Program-made: the position numbers and the translations under genes
Shown: piece by piece, positions 2,795 to 26,398 of the stretch
Position numbering within the stretch: the stretch's first letter is position 1
How the letters are laid out: each line of letters starts with the position of its first letter
Origin: Myxococcota bacterium
GTDB taxonomy: Bacteria; Myxococcota_A; UBA9160; PR03
Reading direction: 5' to 3'
NCBI GenBank assembly: GCA_041611735.1
Contig: JBFIML010000005.1
Coordinates: 7,525 to 71,524, forward strand
DNA length: 64,000 nt
Notes under the pieces: model-generated
Seen by the model: only the letters and a program-made list of their open reading frames with translations
Databases searched by the model: none
What the model was told of the DNA's origin: nothing

Positions 2795-2860
2795 GCCGCC
2801 TACGGCCCGCCCAGCCCGATCTCCCCCGGGGAGTTGTCACTTCGGGGCTTGTCGGACCTC
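2795..2860 (+). repeat. 66-bp direct repeat, copy 1 (partner at 5230-5295)
   Basis: gccgcctacggcccgcccagcccgatctccc[c]cgggga[gt]tgtcacttcggggcttgtcgga[c]ctcg. There are 3 mismatches to copy 2, and both copies have the same orientation. Confidence 0.9.
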
Positions 2861-3010
2861 GCTGGCCCGGAAGTTTGCCGAGCGCGTAAGCACGAAAGGA
2901 AAGCTTTCTATTTCGCCGAGGTCGCTCGCGGTCCGCTACGGGCCGATCCTGACGTCGCCGCGTCCCGATGGGAGGCCGGGGTAGGGCTGCTCCCCGCTCT
3001 GGGAGCCACG

Positions 3011-4625: not shown

Positions 4626-4893
4626 GGCGCTTCGTTGTGGCTGTTGCGGGTTGGGAGCGCGTGGCCTGTCCCGGCGGTCTCTTCGCCCGTGGCGCCATCG
4701 ACGGATGGTTGATCGTCGGCAGTTCCCGGTGCGCCGCCCGGACGAATAGGATATTCCACAATCGCGACACCGGCTGGGCGCCGCCTGGGGTCGAACCTCC
4801 CCAGGAATTTGTCTGCACCGCGGGCACGAGGTCCCCGACGGGATCGAGTCCCGTCCGCCCCGCTGTCGCAAGAGGGCGCGCTCGCTCCGGGCG

Positions 4894-5262
4894 CTAGCGT
4901 GCGGAGAACACTCCTACGACATGGTTCACCCACATCGGGATCAGGGTCGCCCAATAGGCGACCATCCAGGTGAGGCCGACGAGACCGTCCCACGCGTCGG
5001 CGTCACGCGCCCGGTTCCTCAGGTGGAAGCTGAGCCTGCTCTTCGCCAGCGTGTATCTGCCGTGGCAGCTCATTCACCTGAGCGTTCTGCGTTCGGATGC
5101 GAGGACGAGCGCTGAGACGGCCGAACCCGGCACGGGGGTGACCTGGAAGCGGCTGGCGAGAGGCCTGCGTCGATCCAGGAGGAGGACTTCCCTGCCAGCG
5201 AGCGTATCGACGGTCCCGTAGAGATAGGCGCCGCCTACGGCCCGCCCAGCCCGATCTCCCAC
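4894..5262 (-). pseudogene. Interrupted ORF of unknown family with an in-frame TGA at 5074-5076; the distal part has a predicted TM helix
   Basis: The same frame reads ...GGAYLYGTVDTLAGREVLLLDRRRPLASRFQVTP...RTLR-TGA-MSCHGRYTLAKSRLSFHLRNRARDADAWDGLVGLTWMVAYWATLIPMWVNHVVGVFSAR, with stop TAG at 4894-4896. Its 5' end lies inside repeat copy 2. Confidence 0.35.
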
Positions 5263-5295
5263 GGGGAGCTGTCACTTCGGGGCTTGTCGGATCTC
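5230..5295 (+). repeat. 66-bp direct repeat, copy 2 (partner at 2795-2860)
   Basis: See copy 1. The two copies are spaced 2435 bp apart. Confidence 0.9.
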
Positions 5296-5379
5296 GGAAG
5301 CCTGCTTATTCGCCCTAGCCGCCGCAGCCCCCGCAACCCGACGAAGACCCAGGCCATCGAGCGTCGCCACTCTAGGATC

Positions 5380-5682
5380 TCAGGCCGTCGCCTTGAGCTC
5401 GACCCTCAGACGAAATCCCAGCGCGTCGAGAAGCGCCTCCAGGCTACGCAGCTCCGGGTTGCCGTCCTCGGACAGCATGCGGTAGAGGTGCTCCCGATTG
5501 AGCTGGGCAATCTCTGCCAGGCCCGCCAGTCCGCCCTCGCGGGCGCGAGCTACGTCGCGGAGCCCCAGGAGGAAGACCTCCGGATTTTCTTCTCCGAGCG
5601 CGGCGTTGAGGTAGGCGACCGCTTCCGCGTCGTCCTTGAGAACCTCGTCCAGATGGTCTCGGTAGTCTCTAGCTCTTGCCAT
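5380..5682 (-). CDS. HigA-type addiction-module antidote protein (HTH antitoxin)
   Basis: 100 aa: MARARDYRDHLDEVLKDDAEAVAYLNAALGEENPEVFLLGLRDVARAREGGLAGLAEIAQLNREHLYRMLSEDGNPELRSLEALLDALGFRLRVE. This matches the 'putative addiction module antidote protein' family pattern (AYLNAAL..., RE.LY..LS..GNP). Confidence 0.8.
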   Translation of the reverse strand: MARARDYRDHLDEVLKDDAEAVAYLNAALGEENPEVFLLGLRDVARAREGGLAGLAEIAQLNREHLYRMLSEDGNPELRSLEALLDALGFRLRVELKATA

Positions 5683-5945
5683 GGTCTTGACTCCGATAGT
5701 CGCGCCAGTACCGCGTCGGCGCGCTCGATGTCTCTCGCCTGCGATCGCTTGTCTCCGCCACAGAGCAGGATCACGACGGTGTCGCCTTCTCGCCCGAAGT
5801 AGACTCGGTAGCCCCCGCTTCGAGTCGCCGGGGTTGCCGAGGCGGAGCCGACCGATCCGAGCCCGGATCCTGGCCCGCGCCGCCCCGGTCTCTGAGTTTC
5901 CTTTCCTACTCGACGTAGGGCTCGGCGCCGTCCGGGCGGGCATAG
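5669..5945 (-). pseudogene. Eroded RelE/HigB-type addiction-module killer gene (in-frame stop, frameshifts, internal deletion)
   Basis: Toxin-family pieces are spread over three frames. These are ..EPYVE followed by TAG, then AARARIRARIGRLRLGNPGDSKR, then GGYRVYFGREGDTVVILLCGGDKRSQARDIERA, then a DYRSQDHGKS-stop tail overlapping the antitoxin start. The usual VG.GV.ELR.. segment between GD and GYRVYF is missing. Confidence 0.65.
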
Positions 5946-6077
5946 GCACCCGCGAAGGGTCGCCTTAAAGCTACAAGCCGCCACAGGGTCTTCGGCCCAG
6001 CGTAGGCGCACGTTGGCGACAAACCGGCGACAAGGCGTCACGCTCCGGAGTCCTTGTCTTCGGGGTCGTTAGGCCGC

Positions 6078-6111
6078 TCGCGGCCGGGTTCGATTCCCGC
6101 CGCCTCCACAA
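6078..6111 (+). other. Fossil 3' end of a tRNA-Ala or tmRNA-like gene (T-arm plus acceptor strand, no CCA)
   Basis: Reads ccggg-ttcgatt-cccgc-cgcctcc-a-caa. There is a T-loop consensus, and the 3' acceptor strand CGCCTCC would pair with GGGGGCG including a G3:U70 wobble. No matching 5' half occurs upstream, and the first T-stem pair is mismatched. Confidence 0.45.
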
Positions 6112-6635: not shown

Positions 6636-7622
6636 TTGGAGATGGGGGCTTTTCTGAACGAAACCAGGGGCAAGAACGCGCCCCCGGGCCTGGAACGTCT
6701 GCAACAGCGCACGGGAGAGATCCGGGGCCGTTCGAGGGCCGAGCGTGCCGTTGGTTCTCGGAACGCGACCGCAAGCGGCGAGAATGCAGGCGGCGCGCAA
6801 ACCGACGCAGATGGATTGGATCTCTACTTCCCGGTGAAGGCACACCGTGAGAAGTGGAAGGGAGACGGGAATCTGCTCGTAGCCTTTGCTCCGATGGGCG
6901 ACGAGGTAGACGTTTCCGAGATCGTGGCCTACTCGGTAAAGAACGGGAAAAGAATTAGGCTCGATCCCGCAAGAGAGCCCGATCAGGCCGTGCTAGTGAT
7001 CGCCATGGAAGAGCACGGCAGCCACGAAGCAGTCGCGCCTACGAAACAGGACGAACCCCAGGCCGCGGAGCGCGAGAAGCCCAACTTCGAAGGTGGCAAC
7101 CCGCTTCAACCCGAGCGGGAGGCGATACCGAGCAACTCCGTGCATGGAATCAAGTATCTCAAGATCTTCGATGGCAAGGAGCCCTGGTACAAGGGAGATC
7201 CAGAGATCTACCTGCTCTTTGGACGGGCGCAGGGCAACAGCTGCGTCGTCGGGCGCTACGAATGCGCCGCCGTCAACGACGAGAATCGTTGGTACGACCT
7301 CGACAGGTGGCATAAGTGCAAACCGCAACAGGTCGACGAGCGCCAGAGCGCTCTTTGGCCGGTACTGGACCCAAAGCGCGACAAGCTCGTTGTGTTCATC
7401 TTCGAAGATGATTCACGCTATTCGGATCGCGATGGTGTCTTCCTGGACCATTTCTATCCGGGAATCACCTGTGCCTGGCACAATGGCATCGTCCCATCTG
7501 CCCCCGACCGTGGCGACGATCTGGTCCAGCTGATCTGGACCTTTCGAAGTCTCTACCCGTACGGCTCCGACTACTATCACCGGGTCGGAAACGCGTATTT
7601 GGTCTGGCGCAAGGATCCCTGA
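6636..7622 (+). CDS. Hypothetical protein, no family recognised, no signal peptide seen
   Basis: The C-terminal two-thirds has ordinary protein composition (K/E/D/Y/W/F-rich, e.g. IKYLKIFDGKEPWYKGDPEIYLLF...YPYGSDYYHRVGNAYLVWRKDP) and lower G+C than the flanks. The start is uncertain: TTG 6636, ATG 6642, GTG 6834 or ATG 6894. Confidence 0.55.
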   Translation: MEMGAFLNETRGKNAPPGLERLQQRTGEIRGRSRAERAVGSRNATASGENAGGAQTDADGLDLYFPVKAHREKWKGDGNLLVAFAPMGDEVDVSEIVAYSVKNGKRIRLDPAREPDQAVLVIAMEEHGSHEAVAPTKQDEPQAAEREKPNFEGGNPLQPEREAIPSNSVHGIKYLKIFDGKEPWYKGDPEIYLLFGRAQGNSCVVGRYECAAVNDENRWYDLDRWHKCKPQQVDERQSALWPVLDPKRDKLVVFIFEDDSRYSDRDGVFLDHFYPGITCAWHNGIVPSAPDRGDDLVQLIWTFRSLYPYGSDYYHRVGNAYLVWRKDP

Positions 7623-7698
7623 GCTCCAGCCGGGAAGCGCTCTCGGCGGCGATTCGCTCGATTGTTGGAGAAATCGCTGAGTCACCATTGGAGGAAGT

Positions 7699-8811
7699 AT
7701 GAATCCCGACTCGATCTGCCGGCAGTCTCTCCTCGCCCATGGCACCGCAATCGTTCTCCTCGGCGCGATACAGTTGCTTGGGGCGTCGCAGGCTTCCGCA
7801 CAAGAAGCCGACGCGTCGATGACCTACGAGTACTCGGAGCATCAGCCTGAGACGGCGGCCACCGAGTCCCAGGTTGCCACGCGGGGCGACGCGATCTTCT
7901 TCAAGTCCTCGACGGACCAACTGAGGGCCTATACCGGGGCTTTCCTGGGCAGAGCCGAAGGTGGCAACCAGTCGGGGCTCCTATTCGAGCATACCAATCC
8001 TCCCGGTCAGAATCAGAACGCGGTGATGACAGTCGTCGGAGACGGGGTCCAGATCGGCGCGTTCATCAAGGCTCCCTTCCACCCAAAGACGCGAACGAAG
8101 ACGGGCCAGCCGAAGCTCACGATCTTCAATTTCGAAGACGGGGCCGGATGTAGAGACACGGCCTGCAGGCGCAATACCCAGGCACTCTATCTGGAAAGCC
8201 AGGGTCCCTGGGCCACAGCCCACATGCAGAACAACAAGGGCAACGACGTCCTCTACGTCGCGAAGACCGCTGGCGCGGGCCGATACATCAACGCCAGGGA
8301 CGAATCGAAGAAGCGCGATGTCTTCACCGTGGCGGGCGACGGCACGACGAAGGTGCTCGTCCTGGAGGTGATGGGAGGCGCTGACCTCGCAGAAGACTTC
8401 GCCGTCGCCACGCAGGGAGTAGATTCCGCGGCGGATCCGAAACCGGGGATGGTCGTGTCGATCGATCCGTCGAACGAGGGCAACATCCAGCTGAGCGGCG
8501 AAGCCTACGATCGTCGCGTCGCTGGCGTGGTCAGCGGTGCGGGGGGGCTGGCGGCGGGTCTCCTGCTCGGAGTCCAAGAAGGCATGCGGGAGAACCAGCG
8601 CTCCGTCGCGCTGAGCGGTCGCGTGCACGTGCGTTGCAACGCGTCGAGCGGAGCCATCCGCCCGGGCGACTTGCTCACCACTTCCGATCAGCCGGGCCAT
8701 TGCATGAAGGTCACCGACCACGTACGCGCCCAGGGCGCCGTACTGGGCAAGGCCATGGGAACCCTCGAGGAGGGCAGCGGGCTCATCCTCGCGCTCGTTA
8801 CGTTGCAGTGA
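7699..8811 (+). CDS. Secreted hypothetical protein with a conserved-looking C-terminal module
   Basis: ATG is preceded by GGAGGA. The signal peptide ends ...LLGASQASAQE. The C-terminal ~140 aa read GGADLAEDF...PGMVVSIDP...YDRRVAGVVSGAGG...VALSGRVHVRCNASSGAIRPGDLLTTSDQPGHCMKV...GAVLGKAMG...GLILALVTLQ. Confidence 0.7.
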   Translation: MNPDSICRQSLLAHGTAIVLLGAIQLLGASQASAQEADASMTYEYSEHQPETAATESQVATRGDAIFFKSSTDQLRAYTGAFLGRAEGGNQSGLLFEHTNPPGQNQNAVMTVVGDGVQIGAFIKAPFHPKTRTKTGQPKLTIFNFEDGAGCRDTACRRNTQALYLESQGPWATAHMQNNKGNDVLYVAKTAGAGRYINARDESKKRDVFTVAGDGTTKVLVLEVMGGADLAEDFAVATQGVDSAADPKPGMVVSIDPSNEGNIQLSGEAYDRRVAGVVSGAGGLAAGLLLGVQEGMRENQRSVALSGRVHVRCNASSGAIRPGDLLTTSDQPGHCMKVTDHVRAQGAVLGKAMGTLEEGSGLILALVTLQ

Positions 8812-10175
8812 TGCGTGAGTGGATGCTTCCGGCGGCACTCGGCCGGCTCGCTTCCCGCTGTTCGCTGCTCTTCCTCGCCATCCTGTTGCCCTTGGAGGCC
8901 GCGGCGCAGGAGGCCTGGGCGGCAGGTCGCAGCCCCGTTCGAGCCGGCTACCAGGCTCCCTACCTCTACCTCGGCAACAGCGCGGCCGACGACGACCGCG
9001 GGGGGCACTACGACCTGCTTCAGGGCATCGCCAACGGCCCCCGTCACTGGTACTTCTCGCGATACGACGAGCACCAGGGCTATCTCTACCGGGTTTCGTA
9101 CAGTGAGCATCTGGGCCACAAGTTCAGCTTCGACAGGCTCGAACTGACGGCCGCCGTGGATCTCGGTCGGTACCCGGATTGCAATCCAGTTCGCGATTCT
9201 GGCGACTTCCGCGTTTCCTGCCTCCACCCTGGCGACATCGACTACCACGAGCAGGATGGTCGCGGATGGATCGTCGTTGCTCACGAGTGCGAGGTGTGGG
9301 AGAGCGGAAGGGGATCGTCGAAGATCCGGGATACGGCGTTGCTCGGCTTCTATCCCGACGACGCTTTCGGCACGCCCGCCGAGGCCATCGAGCCCCACGC
9401 CTTCGCGGTTCTGGACGGCTGGCAGCACAAGCTACCCGCTGTCGCGGTACGGAAGAACGGGGTGGTGGTTACCACGAACGGTGGCTCGAAGAGCCGAGAC
9501 CTGATGCTGGAGTACGAGATTCCGTGGCGGGCGGTCGCCGCAGGCGGCTGCCTGAACGGTGAAGTCACGAGGATGAACCCGGCCGGCCCCAAAGAGATCC
9601 GGCTCGTGCGTGAGGACGGTGCGAGTCCATTTCTTGCCGACGACTGGCGGCAGGGTTTCGACCTCAGCGACGACGAATCCCTGCTGTTTCTCCTCACGGG
9701 GAAGAGCTGCATGGTGCAGAGCTGCGACGCCGCCAGGCTCAACGTGTTCGAGGCGGCCGGCGGGACGTGGAAGTTTCTGAGGAGATCGAGTCATCACGAT
9801 CGACCCTTCTGGTTCAAGGTCGAGTGTTGTGGACAGGAGCCGGAGGGCGTCTCTTACTACGACCTCAGCAATGTCACCGACCTGCACCCGCAGATGAAAC
9901 GTGGACAGCTGCACGCCATCCTGTTGGGGAACAAATACGTCGGCGGAAAGCTGGCCGGCGCCAAAGACTCCGTCTGGATCAAGCATTTCACGAGCATCGT
10001 CGAGGTCGCGCGGGGCGAGACGCTTGCCGACGTGGTGAATCGAAAGTGGAAAAGAGAGGGCGTCTGGGACGGCTCCGTCCTCGCCCTGGAACGCGGCGTC
10101 TATTCTGGGCCGGTGACGCTCCGCAAGCGAGTTCGTGTCGTGACCCGGGACGGCCCAGCACTGATCGGCCGCTAG
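8811..10175 (+). CDS. Secreted hypothetical protein, paralog A (shares motifs with 10221-11462)
   Basis: ATG 8811 overlaps the upstream TGA (TGATG). The signal peptide ends ...LLPLEAAAQE. Motifs: HWYFS, YLYRVSYSEHL, QEPEGVSYYDL, KRGQLHAILL, VWIKHFTS. Confidence 0.7.
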   Translation: MREWMLPAALGRLASRCSLLFLAILLPLEAAAQEAWAAGRSPVRAGYQAPYLYLGNSAADDDRGGHYDLLQGIANGPRHWYFSRYDEHQGYLYRVSYSEHLGHKFSFDRLELTAAVDLGRYPDCNPVRDSGDFRVSCLHPGDIDYHEQDGRGWIVVAHECEVWESGRGSSKIRDTALLGFYPDDAFGTPAEAIEPHAFAVLDGWQHKLPAVAVRKNGVVVTTNGGSKSRDLMLEYEIPWRAVAAGGCLNGEVTRMNPAGPKEIRLVREDGASPFLADDWRQGFDLSDDESLLFLLTGKSCMVQSCDAARLNVFEAAGGTWKFLRRSSHHDRPFWFKVECCGQEPEGVSYYDLSNVTDLHPQMKRGQLHAILLGNKYVGGKLAGAKDSVWIKHFTSIVEVARGETLADVVNRKWKREGVWDGSVLALERGVYSGPVTLRKRVRVVTRDGPALIGR

Positions 10176-10220
10176 CGCTCGGGCGTTGGGTCATGGGACG
10201 CATCAAAGCAGGAGGGGTCC

Positions 10221-11462
10221 ATGCTCTTCGGCGTGAAGATGGCCGCGATTCTGTTCGCCGCAGCCGTGGCTTTCGAGGCGAGCGCGCAGTCCGCTAGGTT
10301 TCCCACGAATGAAGCCTTTACGAGGTACCTGGGCGACAACCCGAGGGGCTTCGAGACGGATTGGAGCGAGGGGTTCAACGGCGTTTCCCACGACGAGACG
10401 CACTGGTATCTCACGCAGAGGAGATACCTCTATCGAACGCCGCTTTCGGAGCCTCTCAATCGAGATCTGAAGAAGACTCACTATGCGCGTCTGAGGGAGA
10501 TTTCCGAGCTCGAGGGCTACGACCACTTCGGCGACATCTCTGTCTATCCCACCACGGGGGCTGCGAAGTACGTCCTCGTCCCGGTCGATGGGGCGCCCAA
10601 GCGGGAGGCCAGGCTGGCTCTGTTCAGTGCGGACGAGAGGCTGAGGTTCCTGGGATCGGCGGGCTTTCCCGGGCAGCTGCACGAGAACGGAGACGGGCAG
10701 GCGGGCTTCGTCGCGGTGGATCCCGACGGACGCGTTTACAGCATGCGAAACAACGGTCTCTGCGAAAAGTACGCCGCCTCGCCAGAGGATCCGGGACGTG
10801 GCTCGTGTCTGCGCGCCTATCGGCCAACTTGGAGTCGAGTGGGAAGGGAAACGTTCGAGCTACACGTCGATCCGGAGATCCCGCTGCTCGACGAAGTTGG
10901 GAAGCCGATCTTCCTGGAGAACCTGCAGGGGGGTGCCATCACGCCGAGCGGCCGCGTGATCTATCTCTTGAACGGGTTGACTTGCCGTACGTCCAATCGA
11001 GGCCTTCACGCATTCGACCTCGAGACCGGCCGCCGGCTCGCGAGTTCGCGCACGGTGGAGCAGTTCAAGTTCGATTACGATTGCGAGGGAGACCTCGGGA
11101 GCAGCACGGACGTAAGCTTGTTGTCCAATCAGGAGCCGGAGGGCATGACCGTCTGGGACCTCGATGTGCTGCCCAACCCGGGCGGGATGCGAGGCCAGTT
11201 GCACGTCATGCTGATGGAGAACGAACCCTTCGATCGCAACTCGGACAAGCTCTGGTTCAAGCACTACACGAATCGCATCTACGTGGACGCCAAGCGATCG
11301 GGCGGGGACGGCAGCTACGACTCGGCCTACGGAGACCTTTCCGAAGCCGCCGCTCGCGCCTGGGACGGTTCGACCGTCGTGATCCGGGGGCGCTACGACC
11401 GCCGCGCTCGCGTGAATCCGCGCCAGCCGATTCGGATCGAGTCCCAGCCGGGGTCACGCTAG
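10221..11462 (+). CDS. Secreted hypothetical protein, paralog B
   Basis: AGGAGG lies 6 nt upstream of the ATG. The signal peptide ends ...AVAFEASAQS. Motifs: HWYLT, YLYRTPLSEPL, QEPEGMTVWDL, MRGQLHVMLM, LWFKHYTN. The C-terminal DGSYDSAYGDLSEAAARAWDGSTVVIRGRY resembles the lead-in of right-handed beta-helix proteins. Confidence 0.75.
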   Translation: MLFGVKMAAILFAAAVAFEASAQSARFPTNEAFTRYLGDNPRGFETDWSEGFNGVSHDETHWYLTQRRYLYRTPLSEPLNRDLKKTHYARLREISELEGYDHFGDISVYPTTGAAKYVLVPVDGAPKREARLALFSADERLRFLGSAGFPGQLHENGDGQAGFVAVDPDGRVYSMRNNGLCEKYAASPEDPGRGSCLRAYRPTWSRVGRETFELHVDPEIPLLDEVGKPIFLENLQGGAITPSGRVIYLLNGLTCRTSNRGLHAFDLETGRRLASSRTVEQFKFDYDCEGDLGSSTDVSLLSNQEPEGMTVWDLDVLPNPGGMRGQLHVMLMENEPFDRNSDKLWFKHYTNRIYVDAKRSGGDGSYDSAYGDLSEAAARAWDGSTVVIRGRYDRRARVNPRQPIRIESQPGSR

Positions 11463-11697
11463 GCCTCACGTCCAGGATCGATGATCGTGATGCGCGCTGG
11501 GCCCCCCACAAACCAGAGCGGTCAACCGCCTACACAGATGATCCGCATTGCTTCGTGCGGGGCAACTTTTGAGTCGGCAGCATACACGACCTCAGCCCGG
11601 CTCAATACGATGAGTGTATCTGCTCGCTCGATGCGATTGCCGCGGCGGACGGCGTAGCCTGCCCCAACTAGTCTGGGCAAACTCACGACGCTCGCCC

Positions 11698-14600
11698 TCA
11701 TCCTGAAAGCTTTCGCCATCCTACACAAGATGTCGTGCAGCCGTACGGGAGCGGAGGCAAGCTGCCGCAGGTCGTGCCGGGTTTCGTCCCCGGCGCCTGC
11801 GGGCAGGGGTCGCATGCGTCGCCCATGCCATCTGCATCCGTGTCGATGGCCAGTGGGTCCTGCTGGCAGGTGTCCATCAGCACACCCCACACGGGGTTCG
11901 ACAGGGCGATCCGGTCACCGCAGTGGCCCAGTCTCAGCGAAGACTCCGGACAACTCCCATTCGCACCCTCGAAGACGAAGGCATCGTAGTTGTTGGACGC
12001 CGCTCGCGCTGCGGCGCGCACGTAGAATCGCTCGCTCCCCGGTTTGATGCCGAACTGTTCCGGGTCCAGCAGGAAGCTGCCGACGCCGTGATACATCGCC
12101 TGTGAGTTGGCGACGGGCAAGCGCAGTCCAGGCCAGGGCCCGGTCGGCCAGCCGGTTGTCGGCCGGCGGAAGTAGCCCGGCGCAAGATGCCCATCTGGCG
12201 CGAAGGTTTCGTTCCGGTTTCCGACGTACAGATCGACGCGTTGGATCGGGCCGAACTCCGGAGTGGACCACCACTCGACGAGCACTGGGATTTTTTCTCC
12301 CGGGTAGAGGTGAAAGGTGGTCCCCATCTGGAAGTCTGTATCATCGATGAGGCCGTTGCGGTTGCGATCGATCGCCACCCGCAGCGCTGGTCCGTCGGTC
12401 ACGCTGAAGTGCCCTCGCTCGAGCGCATCGATGATCTGCCGGTTCGTATAACGCTTGACACCGGGGAGCTGCGCCGAGGGTGCTCCCTGTGGCGGTCCGA
12501 CGAAGACGAGATTGCGTGGCTTGCCGATCGCCGTGTCCGTGACCGGGTTGTCCGTCCACTGCTCGAAGCGTCCCCGTATCTCCGCCACGCCCGCACCGAA
12601 GATTCCTCCCGATGCGGACGAGGGGTCGAGATCGGGGCGCCCGTGGCGGCGGTAGTTCAAGTCGCCGTGGCTGTCTGAGCCGCCTGCTGCGAACCACTTG
12701 CGTGGCTCGCCCGGTTGCAGCCAGGCAAGCCCCCGGGTCTGGTGGGGATCCAGTCCTTTGCGGAGGTAGACATCCCAGATGTAGGTGCCGTGGTACAGCT
12801 CCTCCCACAGGTGATTCGCCTTGCGCTCCACCGTCGGCCAGAACCAACCGGTGGGCCAGCGCTCGTACTCGCCGACGCGCGCCGGAAAACCGAACGGAAC
12901 ACGGTAGTTGAAGGTGTTGGTGTTGGCTCCTCCGACCGGTGCAGAGCCCCCGTGATGGTACGAGTTGCGAAGCAGGCGATCGTTCTCGTTCCACAGCTGG
13001 AGTCCGAGGATCCCGGGCGACGCCCAGGCCTGGTCCAGTGACACGCGTGAGTAGGGGACCATGTTCGGACCGGCACCGTTCGGCTTGCGCCCGCTGACCG
13101 GATGCGCGAGGAAGGCGCGGCCCTTGCCCGGGATCTCGCCAGCGAGGCTGCCGATTGTGCGCTGCCCGCCACCGAACTTCCCCGTCGCGGCGTCCAACCA
13201 GCCAGCCGCGTTGTTCGGCTGCGCGTCGAAGGGGAAGTAGACGAGATGCTGTCGGGACGAGTACCGGCCAGACCCTTCGACCTCGAAGCTTCCGATGACC
13301 GAGGAGAGGAACTCGACGGTGTCCTCGATGACGCCGCCGTACACGGGAACCTTTTCCTCGATCGGCGCGCCCTGCTCGTCCAGGACGAGAAAGCGCCAGT
13401 CGATGCCCAGTGTCGAGCCCCTCTTCGAGATCTTGAGCGGCTTGCTCACGCGGAATCGCTGTCGCAAAGGAGCATCGACGATGAAGACCTGGTGGGGCCG
13501 CGCCCGGTCGACGCACTCCTGTACAGGGATCCCGCCGCACCCCGAGAAGGCACCACCGTCGGCCTCCGGGTGCCAAGCCGAATAGAGTGACTTGCACGCA
13601 GTGCCCTTGTCGGCCCAGCATCCCTCGACGTCCGCCCATGGGTAGCTCGCGCCTGCCCCGAAGGCGATCGCGTTGGCGCGCTGCTCTTCGTACGACATCT
13701 CGGGCCACGAGTCGATCTCTACGCCCATGAACACCTGGGGAAGAAAGCCTGCCTTGGGCCGCGCAAGGCCGAACTCGACCGCCTCCTTCACGATCGCCTC
13801 GTTGGCTCCGTCACCCGCATAGAGCGACTGCTTCGCAGCCTGGAAGCGCCGGATGTTGAGATCCCTGGCCTCTATCCCCTTGCGCCCACCCGCCTCGACG
13901 GCTCCGTCGATCTGCACGCCGCCGGACCCGTGATCGGTGGCGAAGACGAAGTCGAGCCCGCTCGCACCGAGGGCACGTGCGACGTTGCGGTAGGTATACG
14001 CAGACTCGCCTTCGTTGTCGGTCATCTGGGAGTGGTAGTGAAGGTCCCCGTAGAGCCAGTGCTCCGAGAAGCGCGGGAGCGGAGCCTCGCCCGCATGCAC
14101 GACGAGCTGGTTGATCCAGCGCCGCTTTTCGCCTCCGTACTCGGTCTCGACGGTTATGCGGAGCTGGATGTCCCGGCCCGGTGCAACGGGTCCGCGTGGC
14201 TTGTACCACAGCGCTGCGTGCCACTCCGCCGTACCCGAGATGTCCAGCCTGCAGCGGCTCACATCCACATTCGGAGTGCAGCGGTGCATGGGCGGCTCTT
14301 CGTCGACCGTCGAGATCCAGTCCTTCCACTCGATTTCGCGCAGCTGGGTTGGCGCGAACTGGGAAACCCACTTCCCGCGCTGGAGATCGGACTCCTCCAC
14401 CTCGACGCGCACGAGCGAGCCCACATGTATGCGTTTCAGGAACACTGCCGCCTTGGTCGATCGGTGGTGATCAAAGATCGCGTCGTGGAAGGCGATCGTG
14501 ATCGGTATCCATCCGTATTCGAGCCCGCCTGTGCCGTGAACCGGCTCGATGCGCCACGGCGCGTCGATGGCGAACTCGAGCCCCACCTGTCCACCGATCG

Positions 14601-14772
14601 CGGAGGCGTCAGTGGCGACGAAGCCCAGGGCCAGGACAGCCACGCACACTGTTCCTGCCAGGCCCGCGGCCCGCTTCCGCGTGCGGCCCCGTGCCAGCGA
14701 TGGCTCGCCATTCGAGATTCTCACTGCCCGCCTACGGTCGTCGTAGCCTGAGATCCCCCGGGGATTGGTCAT
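11698..14772 (-). CDS. Large secreted PHP-domain metallohydrolase-like protein with C-terminal thrombospondin type-3 (Ca-binding) repeat
   Basis: 1024 aa from ATG 14772 (the track starts at TTG 14790). The signal/anchor is AGLAGTVCVAVLALGFVATDASA. PHP-type metal motifs are GDLHYHSQMTDNEG, FATDHGSGG and GGSDSHGD. The C-terminal DTDADGMGDACDPCP is a TSP3-like repeat. Confidence 0.7.
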   Translation of the reverse strand: MTNPRGISGYDDRRRAVRISNGEPSLARGRTRKRAAGLAGTVCVAVLALGFVATDASAIGGQVGLEFAIDAPWRIEPVHGTGGLEYGWIPITIAFHDAIFDHHRSTKAAVFLKRIHVGSLVRVEVEESDLQRGKWVSQFAPTQLREIEWKDWISTVDEEPPMHRCTPNVDVSRCRLDISGTAEWHAALWYKPRGPVAPGRDIQLRITVETEYGGEKRRWINQLVVHAGEAPLPRFSEHWLYGDLHYHSQMTDNEGESAYTYRNVARALGASGLDFVFATDHGSGGVQIDGAVEAGGRKGIEARDLNIRRFQAAKQSLYAGDGANEAIVKEAVEFGLARPKAGFLPQVFMGVEIDSWPEMSYEEQRANAIAFGAGASYPWADVEGCWADKGTACKSLYSAWHPEADGGAFSGCGGIPVQECVDRARPHQVFIVDAPLRQRFRVSKPLKISKRGSTLGIDWRFLVLDEQGAPIEEKVPVYGGVIEDTVEFLSSVIGSFEVEGSGRYSSRQHLVYFPFDAQPNNAAGWLDAATGKFGGGQRTIGSLAGEIPGKGRAFLAHPVSGRKPNGAGPNMVPYSRVSLDQAWASPGILGLQLWNENDRLLRNSYHHGGSAPVGGANTNTFNYRVPFGFPARVGEYERWPTGWFWPTVERKANHLWEELYHGTYIWDVYLRKGLDPHQTRGLAWLQPGEPRKWFAAGGSDSHGDLNYRRHGRPDLDPSSASGGIFGAGVAEIRGRFEQWTDNPVTDTAIGKPRNLVFVGPPQGAPSAQLPGVKRYTNRQIIDALERGHFSVTDGPALRVAIDRNRNGLIDDTDFQMGTTFHLYPGEKIPVLVEWWSTPEFGPIQRVDLYVGNRNETFAPDGHLAPGYFRRPTTGWPTGPWPGLRLPVANSQAMYHGVGSFLLDPEQFGIKPGSERFYVRAAARAASNNYDAFVFEGANGSCPESSLRLGHCGDRIALSNPVWGVLMDTCQQDPLAIDTDADGMGDACDPCPQAPGTKPGTTCGSLPPLPYGCTTSCVGWRKLSG

Positions 14773-14876
14773 AGCTGGAGGTTCCCTCAAAAGCCCGCTT
14801 GGATCTACTATCCGTCGCTGCTTATCGCGTGTATGTCGCCGATTTCGACGCCGGAGACGAGAGCGCCGAAGCCCCC

Positions 14877-15054
14877 CATGCCCTCCGACACACCCGGGCG
14901 AGCCTGCACATGGCCCACGGGACCCCGATCAAGTGGATCCAGGGGCAGGGTGGCTGGGCCTCCGCGAAGATGCTCCTGGACGTATACGGCCCCTTCCTCA
15001 GGGTCGAGAGGCGCGGGTTCGCCGATGTGCTCGCGCGGCCCGGCGACTCCGGGC
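14877..15054 (+). pseudogene. Tyrosine-recombinase (phage integrase) C-terminal remnant
   Basis: HALRHTRASLHMAHGTPIKWIQGQGGWASAKMLLDVYGPFL corresponds to the H-x-x-R...Y catalytic tail of integrases. There is no N-terminal or core domain upstream, and the ORF reads on through the tRNA fragment. Confidence 0.6.
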
Positions 15055-15140
15055 GTCTCTTTACGTCTCCGCCGGAGAAACGGGTGGCCAATGCCGAGCC
15101 CATCTTGCTGCGTAGGTCCCCGCGCCAGCGGGAGAATCGG

Positions 15141-15187
15141 TGGAGCCGACGGCCGGATTCGAACCGGCGACCTGCTGATTGCGAATC
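15141..15187 (-). repeat. tRNA-Thr 3'-half copy (att repeat; partner at 34210-34256)
   Basis: tggagccgacggccggattcgaaccggcgacctgct is identical to the 3' end of the intact tRNA at 34210. The next 11 nt have 2 mismatches, and similarity is lost after that. No D-arm or 5' acceptor strand is present. Confidence 0.85.
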
Positions 15188-15287
15188 TGAGCGTCGCCTC
15201 TACTCCCGCGGACGCCCCCTTTCTCCAACCTGCTAGAATCGCTCTCGAATCGGCGTTTTCCGTTGAGCCTCGAACTACGCCTGCTTA

Positions 15288-15336
15288 TGCTTCCGGAAGC
15301 CCCGATTTGCTTCCGGATGCTTCCGACCTGCTTCCG
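15288..15336 (+). repeat. Four phased TGCTTCCG octamers (candidate integrase/excisionase arm-type sites)
   Basis: Copies lie at 15288-15295, 15308-15315, 15318-15325 and 15329-15336 (spacings 20, 10 and 11 nt), between the att repeat and the integrase start. Two more copies lie at the other island end. Confidence 0.6.
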
Positions 15337-15376
15337 AAATCCGAGGTCAGAGCGTCGCGGGGCGGAGGCGCCCGGA

Positions 15377-16561
15377 ATGGCGAAGCTCAACAAGCGCAGC
15401 GTGGACGCGGCCGCGCCGGGCCCGGGCGAGCGCTTCCTGTGGGACGAGGAGCTGCGCGGCTTCGGCCTGCGCGTCTTCCCCTCCGGCCGCAAGACCTTCT
15501 TCGTCCAGTACCGCGATCGCGTCCACGGCCGCACCCGCCGCTACGTGCTCGGCACCTACGGCGTCCTCACCCCCGCCGAGGCCCGCGCCCTGGCCGTGGA
15601 GGCGCTCGCCGAGGTCCAGAAGGGCGGCGCCCCCTCCGAGACCCGCCGCCAGGCCGCACAGGCCCCGACCGTGGCCGACCTCTGCGAGCGCTACGTCGCC
15701 GACTACGCCAAGGCCCGCAAGAAGCCCCGCAGCCTCGCCGAGGACGAGCGCCTGATCGACGACTTCATCAAGCCGGTCCTCGGCCGCCGCAAGGTGGCCT
15801 CCGTGAAGCGCCCGGACGTCGTGCGCCTCCACAACGCCATGGCGGGCACCCCCTACCAGGCCAACCGCGCGCTGGCCGTGCTCTCGAAGATGTTCAACCT
15901 GGCCGAGCGCTGGGGCCTGCGGTCCGACGGCAGCAACCCCGTGCGCCAGGTCGATCGCTTCCGGGAGCGCAAGCGCGAGCGCTTCCTCAGCAAGACCGAG
16001 CTCGCCCGGCTGGGCAAGCACCTGGCCGAGGCCGAGGCCGCCGGCACCGAGAAGGCCCCCACCCTCGCCGCCATCCGGCTGCTCTTCTTCACGGGCTGTC
16101 GTCTCAGCGAGATCCTGGGCCTGCGCTGGGCGGACGTGGACTTCGAGCGGCGCTGCCTGCGGCTCGCCGACTCGAAGACCGGCGCCCGGGTCGTCCCCCT
16201 GAACGCCCCGGCCCTCAAGGTCCTCGCCGACCTCGAGCCAGACGACTCGCCCTGGGTGATCCGCGGCCGCCGGCGCGGCGCCCCGCTGGTGAACCTCGGC
16301 AAGCCCTGGCGCCGCATCCGCGAGGCCACCAAGCTCGGCGACGTCCGCATCCATGACCTGCGCCACTCCTTCGCCAGCGTCGCCGCCGGCTCGGGGCACT
16401 CCCTGGTCGTGATCGGGGCGCTCCTCGGCCACCGCCAGGCCACCACCACGCACCGCTACGCCCACCTGTCGGACGACCCGGTGCGCACGGCCACGGAGGT
16501 GGTTGGAGCGCGGATCGAGGCCGCCATGGCGCGGCGAGATGCAGGCGACGGCGACGAGTAA
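15377..16561 (+). CDS. P4-type tyrosine integrase (DUF4102 arm-binding N-terminus plus catalytic domain)
   Basis: MAKLNKRSVDAA...FLWDEELRGFGLRVFPSGRKTFFVQYR...GRTRRYVLGTYGVLTPAEAR is the DUF4102-type N-terminus. The C-terminal part has RIHDLRHSFAS and HRYAH catalytic motifs. Confidence 0.85.
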   Translation: MAKLNKRSVDAAAPGPGERFLWDEELRGFGLRVFPSGRKTFFVQYRDRVHGRTRRYVLGTYGVLTPAEARALAVEALAEVQKGGAPSETRRQAAQAPTVADLCERYVADYAKARKKPRSLAEDERLIDDFIKPVLGRRKVASVKRPDVVRLHNAMAGTPYQANRALAVLSKMFNLAERWGLRSDGSNPVRQVDRFRERKRERFLSKTELARLGKHLAEAEAAGTEKAPTLAAIRLLFFTGCRLSEILGLRWADVDFERRCLRLADSKTGARVVPLNAPALKVLADLEPDDSPWVIRGRRRGAPLVNLGKPWRRIREATKLGDVRIHDLRHSFASVAAGSGHSLVVIGALLGHRQATTTHRYAHLSDDPVRTATEVVGARIEAAMARRDAGDGDE

Positions 16562-16699
16562 GACGCCGCGGAGGCGCGGGTTCGGCAGCCGGGCGGTTGA
16601 AGGACTGACGCTTCGCTGGCAGGGGCTTGGCCGGGCGACGGAAGCTGGATCGGCCAAGGCTTGGGCCGCTCGATCCCTAGTCCTGCCTCGAGTCGATCG

Positions 16700-18100: not shown

Positions 18101-18250
18101 TAGTCGGCCGTCCCCACAGATCCTCGGCGTCCGAGGCTCTCCCATTCGTCCTTCGCTTCCGCCGCTGACCTGCGCCCCGTGGCCGGCGCCGAGAGGATGA
18201 CCCCGCGGCGCTCAGCGCACGAAGTGCGCGCAACCGGCGGGAAACATCAT
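17975..18250 (-). ncRNA. Candidate IS110 guide ('bridge') RNA region upstream of the transposase
   Basis: This is a non-coding leader with short perfect hairpins (ctctcc-tgc-ggagag near 17973-17987; cctcgg-cgt-ccgagg near 18121-18135). The assignment rests on family knowledge, not on a recognised fold. Confidence 0.25.
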
Positions 18251-18554
18251 GCGCGGCAACATAAGGGCAAGTCACAGTCGCGCTATGCGTCCGGAATCCC
18301 CACGGTTTTCGTGAATGGTTCCGCGCCCGGCGCTTCACTTGTGACTTGGATCCGATTGCTCATCAACCGGGATCGATTCGGCCGTCTCCCGACCGCCCGT
18401 TGACCACCTTGGTGACCGAGACGACGCCAAACCTTTCAAAGCACGTCCTCCGGCCGTCACCGCGGGCGTTGGGCTTCTCGGCCGGATGCGTTGCGCGGGC
18501 GCTCCTGGAAACCTCTCCTCATCGACCGGTCGGAGAGGTGACGCGGGCGTCCTC

Positions 18555-19268: not shown

Positions 19269-19355
19269 GGCCAGGTGTTCTTCTTCAGCTCGACCTTCGA
19301 TCGGATCGCCCAGATCAGATGCCGCGGTTTTGTCTCCGACGAGGCCGACATGGTG

Positions 19356-19769: not shown

Positions 19770-19855
19770 GGGCGGAATACTACTAGAACGAGCCGGGCGC
19801 TGCGAAGACAGGCTATGTTGGTGCCACGGCGCGTCGCTCGACATCGAAGCCAGGG

Positions 19856-19875
19856 GATCTACTTTCCCGTAGATC
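19856..19875. promoter_or_regulatory. Perfect 7-6-7 inverted repeat GATCTAC-TTTCCC-GTAGATC upstream of dps (candidate operator)
   Basis: Lies 24 nt upstream of the dps ATG, in the cdd/dps divergent intergenic region. Confidence 0.35.
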
Positions 19876-19898
19876 TTCACAACCATGGAGAGATCTCG

Positions 19899-20342: not shown

Positions 20343-20426
20343 CCCCAACACGCCGTTGCGATCGTCGATCGCGCAACGTCGCGTGGGCCTCGACCGCTAC
20401 GAGAAGGCTCGAAGCAGGGGGCGTCG

Positions 20427-22883: not shown

Positions 22884-22914
22884 CGCGCGTTCACCCTGCG
22901 GTGAGGGTAGCTCG

Positions 22915-26067: not shown

Positions 26068-26069
26068 GA

Positions 26070-26371: not shown

Positions 26372-26398
26372 GACGAAGGGACGGGTAGGTCCCCTGGG

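What the first reader, a model, noticed from the sequence alone, without database searches (positions are those of the whole stretch)
6636..14772. Lower-G+C cluster of unrecognised secreted proteins facing a giant PHP/TSP3 exoprotein
Four co-directional genes (6636-7622, 7699-8811, 8811-10175, 10221-11462) are closely packed, with gaps of 76, -1 and 45 nt. Two have strong Shine-Dalgarno sites. They differ by eye from the flanks in composition (more A/T, and K/E/Y/W-rich proteins). Three products have signal peptides ending in the same A-x-A-Q junction (SQASAQE, EAAAQE, EASAQS). The first product has none. Converging on them is a ~1024-aa secreted protein with PHP-type metal motifs and a thrombospondin type-3 repeat. 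I cannot assign a family to any of the four, and the set may form an uncharacterised extracellular system. Any function is speculative.
Basis: partly seen in the sequence, partly recalled or inferred. Interest (0 to 1): 0.65.

Follow-up and report, generated by a model that had tools for sequence, protein, structure and literature searches.

The report
Phage-like fibre gene with tagged exoenzymes
Three of the five genes form a widespread but unnamed bacterial cassette: a secreted protein ending in a phage tail-spike-type domain, followed by secreted enzymes that all end in the same 60-residue tag. The other two genes are unrelated neighbours.

Summary
The described ORFs, spacing, Shine-Dalgarno sites, lower G+C and A-x-A|Q signal-peptide junctions are all present. 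The five genes are not one system.

g2, g3 and g4 (7699-11462) are one copy of a gene cassette that recurs across at least six phyla.
- g2 ends in a ~175-aa domain with no Pfam model. Its predicted fold matches trimeric beta-tulip phage cement proteins and the phi29 gp12 C-terminal auto-chaperone, and it carries a D-x-x-E-x-F motif that aligns with the gp12 cleavage site.
- g3 and g4 are paralogous beta-propellers of an unnamed family of about 2000 clusters.
- Both propellers end in a ~60-aa C-terminal module (CTM).

In other genomes the same CTM ends trypsin-like, reprolysin, M36-like and GH42-like enzymes encoded directly downstream of g2-type genes. This holds for 30 of 49 g2-type genes, against 1 of 42 upstream.

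g1 (partial DUF3103, no signal peptide) and g5 (PHP-type metallohydrolase family) never co-occur with the cassette.

The stretch looks foreign in composition and lies beside a tRNA-Thr island.

Best guess, inferred only: the g2 trimer is a hub or processing partner for CTM-tagged exoenzymes.

The parts
7699..8811 (+). g2: Sec-exported 370-aa protein with a variable, poorly modelled N-terminal part and a conserved C-terminal domain. First gene of the cassette.
   Evidence: ORF with a GGAGGA Shine-Dalgarno site. More than 1462 relatives match through the C-terminal ~170 aa only, and none carries a Pfam domain over it. AlphaFold pLDDT is below 50 for residues 1-133 and 85-97 for the C-domain.
7699..7800 (+). 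Predicted g2 signal peptide (aa 1-34), cleavage SQASA|QE.
   Evidence: Read from the sequence and reproduced by the crude script. No SignalP was available.
8284..8808 (+). g2 C-terminal beta-tulip / gp12-auto-chaperone-like domain (aa 196-370).
   Evidence: Foldseek against PDB: phage cement proteins (8hdt_G, E 7e-5) and the phi29 gp12 C-terminal fragment (3gqh_A, E 6e-4, TM 0.55). Foldseek against BFVD: tail-fibre, collagen-like and uncharacterised phage proteins, E down to 3e-12. Three of 68 homologs give weak Pfam hits to XM1_gp53_minor_capsid or Phage_cement_2.
8374..8400 (+). GGA|DLAEDF motif (aa 226-234). D229, E232 and F234 are invariant in the family. It aligns with the phi29 gp12 S691|D692-F-A-E695-Y-F auto-cleavage site.
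   Evidence: Invariant columns. hmmsearch and hhalign alignments to gp12 (weak statistics). Mature gp12* ends at residue 691 (PMC6542822).
8811..10175 (+). g3: Sec-exported 454-aa divergent beta-propeller, paralog of g4. Its start overlaps the g2 stop (TGATG).
   Evidence: BLASTP against g4: 28% identity over 210 aa, E 1e-10. Match to the g4-family HMM, E 8e-92; g3 was one of the sequences used to build that model. g3 lacks the near-invariant H-D of blade 1.
10008..10169 (+). C-terminal module (CTM) of g3 (aa 400-453).
   Evidence: CTM HMM. The same module ends unrelated enzymes in other loci.
10221..11462 (+). g4: Sec-exported 413-aa beta-propeller of an unnamed family.
   Evidence: AlphaFold pLDDT 86.6, pTM 0.87. 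Foldseek gives only generic propellers, with PON1 TM at most 0.49. The family has 2038 representative clusters at E <= 1e-3. Invariant residues are Q236 G237 F282 E305 E307 G308 G325 H328 H348.
11274..11453 (+). C-terminal module (CTM) of g4 (aa 352-411).
   Evidence: CTM HMM. pLDDT is about 87-95 and the module is a small strand-helix-hairpin unit. Presence of the CTM in g4 homologs tracks the presence of a g2-type neighbour: 24/30 against 6/37, Fisher p = 1.5e-7.
6642..7622 (+). g1: partial or divergent DUF3103 protein with no signal peptide. A neighbour, not part of the conserved cassette.
   Evidence: Pfam DUF3103, 35 bits, covering profile positions 71-207 of 351. No relative in 148 related loci or in the metagenome scan.
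11698..14772 (-). g5: secreted 1024-aa PHP-superfamily (CehA/McbA-like) metallohydrolase family member. Convergent neighbour, not linked to the cassette.
   Evidence: NCBIfam NF038032, 36 bits, below the cut-off. 39 of 40 homologs give the same sub-threshold hit. D249/H251/H253, H287, H563 and D706/H708 are invariant. The family has 169 relatives, all annotated as hypothetical, in unrelated contexts.
14850..14987 (+). Remnant of the C-terminus of a tyrosine recombinase.
   Evidence: Pfam Phage_integrase, profile positions 121-165 of 172, E 1.8e-4. Unrelated to the intact integrase next door.
15140..15187 (-). Copy of the 3' half of tRNA-Thr(CGU). Direct repeat of 34209-34256 and distal att site of a 19-kb integrase-bearing island that starts here.
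   Evidence: the repeat finder family D3, 96% identity. tRNA-Thr at 34210-34285. Integrase at 15263-16561.
6062..6111 (+). tRNA-like or tmRNA-like 3' fragment (T-arm plus acceptor end) at the left edge of the cluster.
   Evidence: Rfam tmRNA, 25 bits, E 8e-7, below gathering. Sequence read directly.

Best explanation
Window 7699-11462 is a three-gene operon. It is one instance of a widespread, unannotated cellular cassette in which a gene for a secreted beta-tulip-tailed protein is followed by one to four genes for secreted enzymes that share a C-terminal tag.

Shown:
- g2 is exported and consists of a variable N-terminal part and a conserved C-terminal domain.
- The predicted fold of that domain matches the trimeric beta-tulip fold of phage cement proteins and of the phi29 gp12 C-terminal auto-chaperone.
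- The domain starts with an invariant D-x-x-E-x-F motif that aligns with the gp12 self-cleavage site.
- g3 and g4 are exported paralogous beta-propellers with an invariant set of His, Glu and Gln residues.
- Each propeller ends in a ~60-residue module (CTM).
- In other genomes the same CTM ends trypsin-like, reprolysin, M36-like and GH42-like proteins encoded directly downstream of g2-type genes.

Inferred:
- g2 trimerises through its C-terminal domain and may cut itself at A228|D229.
- The CTM is the handle by which the downstream exoenzymes are recruited to, assembled on or matured by the g2 trimer. That would give a surface or extracellular multi-enzyme complex whose payload varies between lineages.
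- The g3/g4 propellers are the payload here and are probably hydrolases.

g1 (a DUF3103 fragment) and g5 (a PHP metallohydrolase) are bystanders. The whole 3-15 kb stretch is compositionally foreign DNA next to a tRNA-Thr integration hot spot.
For: Linkage seen from the propeller side: of 67 independent g4-family loci, 30 have a g2-type gene within 3 kb. All 30 are on the same strand and 29 are upstream. The link tracks the presence of the CTM (24/30 against 6/37, p = 1.5e-7).

Linkage seen from the g2 side, in an independent metagenome sample: 30 of 49 g2-type genes with at least 2 kb of downstream sequence are followed by a CTM-terminated ORF. The corresponding figure upstream is 1 of 42, and none lies on the opposite strand. 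24 of the 30 begin within about 150 nt.

The CTM is shared by unrelated enzyme bodies.

Only the g4 family and the g2 C-domain family recur broadly in all-against-all clustering of neighbourhood ORFs.

Fold and motif evidence for g2.

Operon features: the TGATG overlap and the Shine-Dalgarno sites.

The g2 C-domain family is cellular: at least 495 metagenome relatives against one weak hit in 2.9 million viral contigs.

The pattern in which the conserved parts (g2 C-domain, CTM) flank variable parts (g2 N-terminus, enzyme bodies) is what is expected when the conserved parts are the interacting ones. This last point is inference.
Against: There is no direct evidence that the CTM and the g2 domain touch. 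No complex prediction could be run.

Six of 30 CTM-bearing propeller genes have no g2-type gene within 3 kb, and 19 of 49 g2-type genes have no CTM gene downstream.

Sequence-level support for homology with gp12 is weak (hhalign E 0.05; no Pfam Peptidase_G2 hit).

If the g2 domain is cleaved off as in phi29, a hub role is less obvious.

Astacin genes lie between the g2-type gene and the propeller gene in two loci without a detectable CTM.

The propeller has no specific structural relative, so 'hydrolase' is a guess. Signal peptides were judged without a dedicated predictor.
Confidence: 0.55

Rival explanations
1. The CTM is a C-terminal sorting or secretion signal read by machinery encoded elsewhere, in the manner of T9SS CTDs or PEP-CTERM. 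g2 would then be a co-exported anchor, usher or first cargo and not a direct binding partner.
For: The CTM sits at the extreme C-terminus of many unrelated Sec-exported enzymes. Some CTM proteins lack a nearby g2-type gene. One g2-type protein itself ends in a CTM (L047). Some g4-family members carry a T9SS Por_Secre_tail in place of the CTM.
Against: No known sorting-tag model matches the CTM. No candidate sorting enzyme or transporter recurs in the neighbourhoods. The strict g2-then-CTM gene order and immediate adjacency point to a dedicated partner. The cassette occurs in phyla with very different envelopes.
Confidence: 0.2
2. g2 is an ordinary self-processing fibre or adhesin whose C-terminal domain only chaperones its own trimerisation and is then discarded. 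The downstream enzymes would be functionally related, acting on the substrate the fibre binds, but not physically attached. The CTM would be a fold-stabilising or substrate-binding module.
For: The gp12-like motif at the domain boundary. IMC domains of phage fibres are conserved while their passenger regions vary. By eye, the CTM resembles the N-terminal cap of right-handed beta-helix proteins, and the CTM HMM also hits N-terminal or internal sites in large ORFs.
Against: This does not explain why presence of the CTM, and not the enzyme class, predicts the g2-type neighbour. The CTM HMM does not match the gp12 beta-helix cap.
Confidence: 0.15
3. All five genes (g1-g5) form one extracellular system.
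For: Physical clustering, shared lower G+C and shared export signals for four of the five genes. The same five-gene block is seen on every contig from this population.
Against: No g1 or g5 relative was found in 148 loci holding g4-family or g2-type genes. g5-family loci hold none of g1-g4. The five-gene block is seen only in one near-identical population.
Confidence: 0.05
4. The cluster is a decayed prophage or tailocin remnant: a tail-fibre gene plus accessory genes.
For: The g2 C-domain has a phage fold. Integrase remnants and att-like repeats lie nearby.
Against: No PHROG hits. No phage structural genes in more than 140 related loci. The proteins carry Sec signal peptides. The family is nearly absent from viral contigs. 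The neighbouring island carries stress and repair cargo, not phage genes.
Confidence: 0.03

Closest known systems
phi29 gp12 (pre-neck appendage / tail spike) C-terminal auto-chaperone, Pfam Peptidase_G2 (PF11962), PDB 3GQH/3SUC
   Same: The domain is C-terminal and the predicted fold matches (Foldseek E 6e-4, TM 0.55). The motif at the start of the domain, [S/A]|D-x-x-E-x-F, aligns with the S691|D692 cleavage site. In phi29 the domain is trimeric and drives assembly of the upstream part (PMC3357383).
   Different: There is no Pfam Peptidase_G2 match for g2 or for 68 homologs. The protein is Sec-exported and cellular, not a virion part. The upstream passenger is short and is not a recognisable beta-helix. 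Cleavage is untested. No gp12 counterpart exists for the linked CTM-tagged enzyme genes.
Beta-tulip phage decoration (cement) proteins: lambda gpD, P74-26 gp87, TW1 gp56, Pam3 and XM1 cement proteins
   Same: These are the best structural matches (8hdt_G E 7e-5; Sf11, TW1, XM1, T1). They have a trimeric beta-tulip fold and bind partner proteins through extended arms. A few homologs give weak Pfam hits to XM1_gp53_minor_capsid or Phage_cement_2.
   Different: g2 is not encoded in a phage and has no capsid to bind. Its domain is fused behind a variable secreted N-terminal region. The review cited (PMC7602432) regards the fold as almost exclusively viral, whereas this family is abundant in cellular metagenomes.
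Tag-and-partner systems for secreted enzymes: dockerin-cohesin (cellulosome), T9SS C-terminal domain, PEP-CTERM/exosortase. This is a functional analogy drawn from general knowledge.
   Same: A short conserved module sits at the extreme C-terminus of many unrelated secreted hydrolases, and it is genetically tied to one conserved partner gene.
   Different: No sequence match to any of those tags or partners. The partner here is a phage-type beta-tulip domain. Neither binding nor sorting has been shown.
Six-bladed propeller hydrolases such as serum paraoxonase PON1, and generic WD40/PROPPIN propellers
   Same: g4 is predicted with confidence to be a beta-propeller. PON1 gives the best TM-scores (0.40-0.49).
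   Different: There is no sequence similarity and TM stays below 0.5. The family's own invariant motifs (HD, DHFGD, QGG, EEPEG, GQLH, KHY) are not those of PON1. The number of blades (5-6) and the active site could not be settled.
CehA/McbA-family PHP metallohydrolases (NCBIfam NF038032); applies to g5 only
   Same: The H-x-H, H, H and D-x-H metal-ligand motifs are invariant in the g5 family. 39 of 40 homologs hit the model.
   Different: Scores lie well below the curated cut-off (36 against 80 bits). The protein is about 1000 aa with large unassigned regions. There is no PDB sequence match.

Membership tests
Peptidase_G2 / phi29 gp12 C-terminal intramolecular chaperone (PF11962) | Match to the Pfam model at or above its gathering score | tested here: not met
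   No hit for g2 even at E <= 10. None of 68 homologs hits at E <= 0.01. gp12 itself scores 296-325 bits.
Peptidase_G2 / phi29 gp12 C-terminal intramolecular chaperone (PF11962) | Fold of the gp12 C-terminal fragment | tested here: met
   Foldseek: 3gqh_A E 6.2e-4, TM (target) 0.55; 3suc E 8.2e-4. The g2 C-domain model has pLDDT 85-97.
Peptidase_G2 / phi29 gp12 C-terminal intramolecular chaperone (PF11962) | Acidic cleavage-site motif at the start of the domain (gp12 S691|D692-x-x-E695) | tested here: inconclusive
   g2 A228|D229-L-A-E232-D-F234 aligns with gp12 S|DFAEYF in both hmmsearch and hhalign. D, E and F are invariant in 68 homologs. The alignments themselves are weak (E 0.005 against a single target; hhalign E 0.05). 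That D and E are catalytic rests on my recollection of Xiang et al. 2009, which could not be opened.
Peptidase_G2 / phi29 gp12 C-terminal intramolecular chaperone (PF11962) | Autoproteolytic release of the domain after trimer assembly | not testable with these tools
   Needs protein chemistry, for example intact-mass or N-terminal sequencing of secreted g2.
Beta-tulip phage decoration/cement proteins | Beta-tulip fold | tested here: met
   Top PDB matches are cement proteins of Pam3, Sf11, XM1, TW1, BB1 and T1 (E 7e-5 to 3e-2, TM 0.45-0.58). lambda gpD and MoeA appear lower in the list. The fold is described in PMC7602432.
Beta-tulip phage decoration/cement proteins | Encoded in a phage genome and binds a capsid lattice | tested here: not met
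   No PHROG hit. No phage genes recur in the neighbourhoods. One weak relative in 2.9 million viral contigs against at least 495 in metagenomes. The protein has a Sec signal peptide.
Known C-terminal sorting or docking tags (dockerin, T9SS CTD, PEP-CTERM and similar) | Sequence match of the tag to a described model | tested here: not met
   Pfam and NCBIfam give nothing over the CTM of g3, g4 or of CTM-bearing proteases.
Known C-terminal sorting or docking tags (dockerin, T9SS CTD, PEP-CTERM and similar) | Extreme C-terminal position on diverse secreted enzymes, with a genetically linked partner | tested here: met
   88 CTM-terminated ORFs with at least five unrelated bodies. Partner linkage.
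Known C-terminal sorting or docking tags (dockerin, T9SS CTD, PEP-CTERM and similar) | Physical binding to, or processing by, the partner | not testable with these tools
Needs AlphaFold-Multimer or biochemistry.
PON1-like / WD40 beta-propellers (g3, g4) | Propeller fold | tested here: met
   AlphaFold pLDDT 86.6. 249 PDB matches at E <= 1e-3, all of them propellers.
PON1-like / WD40 beta-propellers (g3, g4) | Specific family membership (sequence match, TM > 0.5, shared catalytic residues) | tested here: not met
   No Pfam, NCBIfam or PDB sequence hit. The best query-normalised TM is 0.40.
CehA/McbA PHP metallohydrolase (g5) | NCBIfam NF038032 at or above 80 bits | tested here: not met
   36 bits for g5. 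39 of 40 homologs hit below threshold.
CehA/McbA PHP metallohydrolase (g5) | Conserved PHP metal-ligand motifs (H-x-H ... H ... H ... D-x-H) | tested here: met
   D249, H251, H253, H287, H563, D706 and H708 are invariant in 40 sequences.
Thrombospondin type-3 repeat (g5 C-terminus) | Match to Pfam TSP_3 or TSP3_bac | tested here: not met
   TSP_3 E = 5.5, 7 bits, one 12-residue stretch.
DUF3103 (g1) | Pfam PF11301 at or above 25 bits | tested here: met
   35 bits, E 1e-8, but only profile positions 71-207 of 351 and g1 residues 62-194 of 328.
tRNA-integrated genomic island (context) | Direct repeat of a tRNA 3' part plus an adjacent integrase | tested here: inconclusive
   Met for 15140-34256: a 48-nt repeat at 96% identity and the integrase at 15263. 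For the g1-g5 stretch itself there are only an integrase remnant, a tmRNA-like fragment in the opposite orientation and deviant G+C. No matching pair of repeats was found.

The most novel reading that the evidence does not exclude
The beta-tulip (gp12-auto-chaperone-like) domain and the ~60-aa CTM are the two halves of a previously unrecognised extracellular assembly system that spans several phyla. In this reading a trimeric hub derived from, or shared with, phage fibre and cement proteins captures up to three CTM-tagged hydrolases (propellers, reprolysins, trypsin-like and M36-like proteases, GH42-like enzymes) and displays them on a variable targeting stalk. That would be a protein-degrading counterpart of the cohesin-dockerin principle, built from unrelated parts.
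Probability: 0.3. Interest if true: 0.8.

Novelty: new variant of a known kind. Interest (0 to 1): 0.62.

Why it matters
Both families are large. The g2 C-domain has more than 1400 clusters at 90% identity, and the propeller family has about 2000 clusters at 50% identity. Neither has a Pfam or NCBIfam model, and every named relative is annotated 'hypothetical protein'.

A strict, directional gene pairing between them, mediated by a portable C-terminal tag on otherwise unrelated exoenzymes, gives a concrete and testable handle on thousands of unannotated secreted proteins. These occur in Planctomycetota, Acidobacteriota, Bacteroidota and other environmental phyla.

The finding also shows that the beta-tulip fold is widely used by cells outside any phage context. 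A 2020 review (PMC7602432) described that fold as almost exclusively viral.

If the tag proves to be a docking or sorting signal, it would be a new principle for organising extracellular proteolysis, and a potential tool for trimeric enzyme display.

Tried and rejected
Searches that returned nothing useful:
- Pfam, NCBIfam, PHROGs and PADLOC gave nothing for g2, g3 and g4. They gave only DUF3103 for g1 and a sub-threshold PHP hit for g5.
- PDB sequence searches with single proteins and with family profiles gave no significant hit.
- The metagenome scan for close g1 relatives found none.
- The viral-contig scan for the g2 domain found one weak hit.

Ideas tested and dropped:
- Anti-phage defence system: no PADLOC hit.
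- Prophage or tailocin remnant: no phage genes, and the neighbouring island carries ferritin, photolyase-related, DUF1295 and similar cargo.
- g4 as a glutaminyl cyclase acting on the N-terminal Gln of its neighbours: an idea only. It has no structural or sequence support and was not pursued.
- g4 as a GH43/GH32-type five-bladed glycosidase: supported only by a rank-47 Foldseek hit, an insignificant PDB profile hit (E 0.5) and one homolog with a GH43 Pfam hit of unknown position.
- CTM as the equivalent of the gp12 beta-helix N-terminal cap: the HMM finds no match, and the resemblance is by eye only.
- The integrase remnant at 14.8-15.0 kb as a duplicate of the adjacent integrase: no similarity.

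Correction: my first impression that the g4 family is tiny (19 hits in the word-indexed search) was wrong. The exhaustive profile search finds 2038 clusters.

Not achieved:
- The taxonomic origin of the window could not be established with the tools left.
- The primary phi29 gp12 paper (PMC2692858) could not be opened.

Full report
**Observation**

The ORFs are as described. Four lie on the + strand (6636/6642-7622, 7699-8811, 8811-10175, 10221-11462) with gaps of 76, -1 and 45 nt. A convergent ORF of 1024 aa (1030 aa from an upstream TTG) occupies 11698-14772/14790 on the - strand. g2 and g4 have GGAGGA and AGGAGG sites a few bases before their ATG, and g3 starts inside the g2 stop codon (TGATG).

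G+C is 62.9% over g1-g4 and 65.5% for g5, against 72.3% for 15.2-64 kb. GC3 is 0.71-0.80 against about 0.85-0.96. The deviant stretch begins near 3 kb and includes an SGNH/GDSL hydrolase gene.

g2, g3 and g4 begin with typical Sec signal peptides that end in A-x-A followed by Gln. g1 has no hydrophobic N-terminus in any frame. No dedicated signal-peptide predictor was available.

**What each product is**

- g1 hits Pfam DUF3103 above threshold, but over only about 40% of the model.
- g2, g3 and g4 hit nothing in Pfam, NCBIfam, PHROGs, PADLOC or PDB sequences.
- g5 gives a sub-threshold hit to the CehA/McbA PHP metallohydrolase model, and 39 of 40 homologs share it. The H-x-H, H, H and D-x-H ligands are invariant. 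Its 'TSP3 repeat' is one insignificant motif.
- g3 and g4 are paralogs.
- AlphaFold models g4 with confidence (pLDDT 86.6) as a beta-propeller followed by a small C-terminal unit. Foldseek finds only generic propellers, and PON1 is best with TM <= 0.49.
- An exhaustive profile search puts the g3/g4 family at 2038 clusters (E <= 1e-3). Members are fused to extracellular binding modules such as crystallin, PAN, ricin, PPC and the T9SS tail.

**The g2 C-terminal domain**

More than 1462 proteins share only the last ~170 residues of g2, behind variable N-termini that occasionally contain collagen repeats, SLH or CBM5/12. The domain is modelled at pLDDT 85-97, while the N-terminal 130 residues are not modelled.

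Structural matches:
- Its best PDB matches are trimeric phage cement proteins (Pam3, Sf11, XM1, TW1, T1) and the C-terminal auto-chaperone fragment of the phi29 tail spike gp12 (3gqh_A, E 6e-4).
- Among predicted viral structures it matches tail-fibre, collagen-like and uncharacterised phage proteins down to E 3e-12.
- A review notes that these cement proteins share the trimeric beta-tulip fold, that P74-26 gp87 is structurally homologous to phi29 gp12, and that the fold is almost exclusively viral (PMC7602432).

Cleavage-site motif: profile alignments place g2 'GGA|DLAEDF' on gp12 'TWS|DFAEYF'. Mature gp12* ends at residue 691, which is exactly that junction (PMC6542822). D229, E232 and F234 are invariant in the g2 family.

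Statistically these alignments are weak, and the Pfam Peptidase_G2 model does not match. I therefore treat g2 as resembling a gp12-type auto-chaperone. I do not treat it as a demonstrated member of that family.

**Conserved neighbourhood**

A scan of one genome per species found 61 loci with a g4 relative, in Planctomycetota (mostly Phycisphaerae), Acidobacteriota, Bacteroidota, Nitrospirota, Eisenbacteria, KSB1, Deltaproteobacteria and Firmicutes. Together with metagenome loci this gives 67 independent loci.
- 30 of the 67 have a g2-type gene within 3 kb. It is always on the same strand and is upstream in 29 of the 30.
- Several loci repeat the window's layout of one g2-type gene followed by two propeller genes (L020, L021, L030).
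- In all-against-all clustering of neighbourhood ORFs, only these two families recur broadly.
- g1 and g5 relatives are absent from every one of these loci, and g5-family loci hold none of g1-g4.

**The C-terminal module**

The link with g2 tracks the last ~60 residues of the propeller proteins: 24 of 30 genes with this tail have a g2-type neighbour, against 6 of 37 without it (p = 1.5e-7).

Genes lying between the g2-type gene and the propeller gene in other genomes encode trypsin-like proteases, reprolysins, astacins and an M43-like protein. The trypsin-like and reprolysin proteins match the propeller HMM only through that same tail, at their extreme C-terminus.

An HMM of the tail (CTM) finds 88 CTM-terminated ORFs with at least five unrelated bodies. 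These include M36-like and GH42-like proteins and several unknown families.

**Independent test from the g2 side**

A metagenome scan found at least 495 g2-type genes, and 80 loci were kept.
- Of 49 genes with at least 2 kb of downstream sequence, 30 are followed on the same strand by a CTM-terminated ORF, and 24 of those begin within about 150 nt.
- The corresponding figure upstream is 1 of 42, and none lies on the opposite strand.
- Only one of these downstream genes encodes a propeller.

The conserved unit is therefore 'g2-type gene, then CTM-tagged exoenzyme gene(s)'. The window carries a version with two propellers. The g2 family is essentially absent from 2.9 million viral contigs.

**Mechanism**

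Shown: the gene order, the shared tag, export signals, the fold of the g2 domain, and the conserved acidic motif.

Inferred: g2 trimerises through its beta-tulip domain and may cleave itself at A228|D229. The CTM is the handle by which the downstream enzymes are recruited to, or matured with, that trimer. The two conserved elements (g2 C-domain and CTM) flank the variable ones (g2 N-terminus and enzyme bodies), as in other tag-and-partner systems.

Rival readings:
- The CTM is a sorting signal for machinery encoded elsewhere.
- The g2 domain serves only its own folding.

I could not run a complex prediction, so the docking step carries roughly one-in-three confidence. That g2-g4 form a conserved functional unit is well supported.

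**Context**

A 48-nt copy of the 3' half of tRNA-Thr at 15140-15187 is 96% identical to 34209-34256 within the intact tRNA gene. The two copies bracket a 19-kb island that carries a tyrosine integrase (15263-16561), an IS110 transposase and stress or repair cargo, and no phage genes.

Just left of that repeat lie an unrelated integrase remnant (14850-14987) and then g5. At the left edge of the cluster lie a tmRNA-like 3' fragment (6062-6111) and a HigA-type antitoxin gene.

Contigs of the same population in public runs break near 5.6-5.7 kb and at about 15.17 kb. Together with the deviant G+C, this marks the stretch as horizontally acquired DNA at an integration hot spot. No clean pair of flanking repeats defines it as a discrete island.

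**Verdict**

Three of the five genes are an instance of a widespread, undescribed cassette built from a cellular relative of a phage beta-tulip/auto-chaperone domain and a portable C-terminal tag on secreted hydrolases.

I found no paper describing this pairing, and every named relative is annotated 'hypothetical protein'. I rate it a new variant of a known kind (tag-and-partner organisation of secreted enzymes; fibre with a phage-type C-terminal assembly domain). Interest is 0.62.

Noticed in passing
window 15140-34256: A 19-kb genomic island is bracketed by a 48-nt direct repeat of the 3' half of tRNA-Thr(CGU) (15140-15187 and 34209-34256, 96% identical). It carries a tyrosine integrase (15263-16561), an IS110 transposase (16727-17974) and cargo genes: ferritin-like, 2-thiouracil desulfurase-like, NAD epimerase, photolyase-related DPRP, pyridine-nucleotide oxidoreductase and DUF1295. 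It holds no phage genes.
   Followed up: partly
window 2795-2861 and 5230-5296: Two 67-nt direct repeats (96% identical), 2.4 kb apart, flank the low-G+C (60%) SGNH/GDSL hydrolase gene at 3291-4871. A second, weaker repeat pair lies beside them (2732-2765 and 5172-5205). This may be a small insertion or a duplication junction.
   Followed up: no
window 6062-6111 (+): A 50-nt fragment has a T-arm and acceptor 3' end (…GGGTTCGATTCCCGCCGCCTCCAC). Rfam scores it as a tmRNA end (25 bits, E 8e-7, below gathering). No intact tmRNA or tRNA gene is present here, so it may be an old att remnant at the left edge of the cluster.
   Followed up: partly
window 14850-14987 (+): A remnant of the C-terminal catalytic region of a tyrosine recombinase (…HALRHTRASLHMAHGTPIKWIQGQGGWASAKMLLDVYG…). 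It is unrelated to the intact integrase 300 nt further on, which suggests successive integrations at the same tRNA-Thr site.
   Followed up: partly
window 5380-6041 (-): A HigA-type antitoxin (Pfam dnstrm_HI1420, addiction-module antidote). The overlapping upstream ORF looks by eye like a RelE/HigB-type killer but has no Pfam hit. Contigs of the same population in public runs break inside this region.
   Followed up: partly
g2, g3, g4 N-termini; families P0001-P0139 and P0260-P0402: Gln is the commonest residue right after crudely predicted signal-peptide cleavage sites in the g4 family (36/129) and the g2 C-domain family (22/91), but not in the g5 family. This recalls, from memory and unchecked in the literature here, the pyroglutamate 'Q-rule' described for Bacteroidetes. 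It may reflect the phyla involved and not the cassette itself.
   Followed up: partly
L047 6599-8911 (Planctomycetales MAG): One stop-free reading frame contains a g2-type beta-tulip domain, then about 370 further residues, and ends in a CTM. This may be a natural fusion of the two halves of the cassette.
   Followed up: no
L024 8844-9905 and L040 7636-8730: Astacin (M12A) genes sit between the g2-type gene and the propeller gene, but no CTM was detected at their C-termini. This is an exception to the tag rule, or else a divergent tag.
   Followed up: no
L078 4532-11024: The g5 homolog lies next to another ~1024-aa ORF that shows no similarity to it. TIR-domain and SpvB/Tc-toxin genes are nearby. 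The contexts of the g5 family are highly variable.
   Followed up: no
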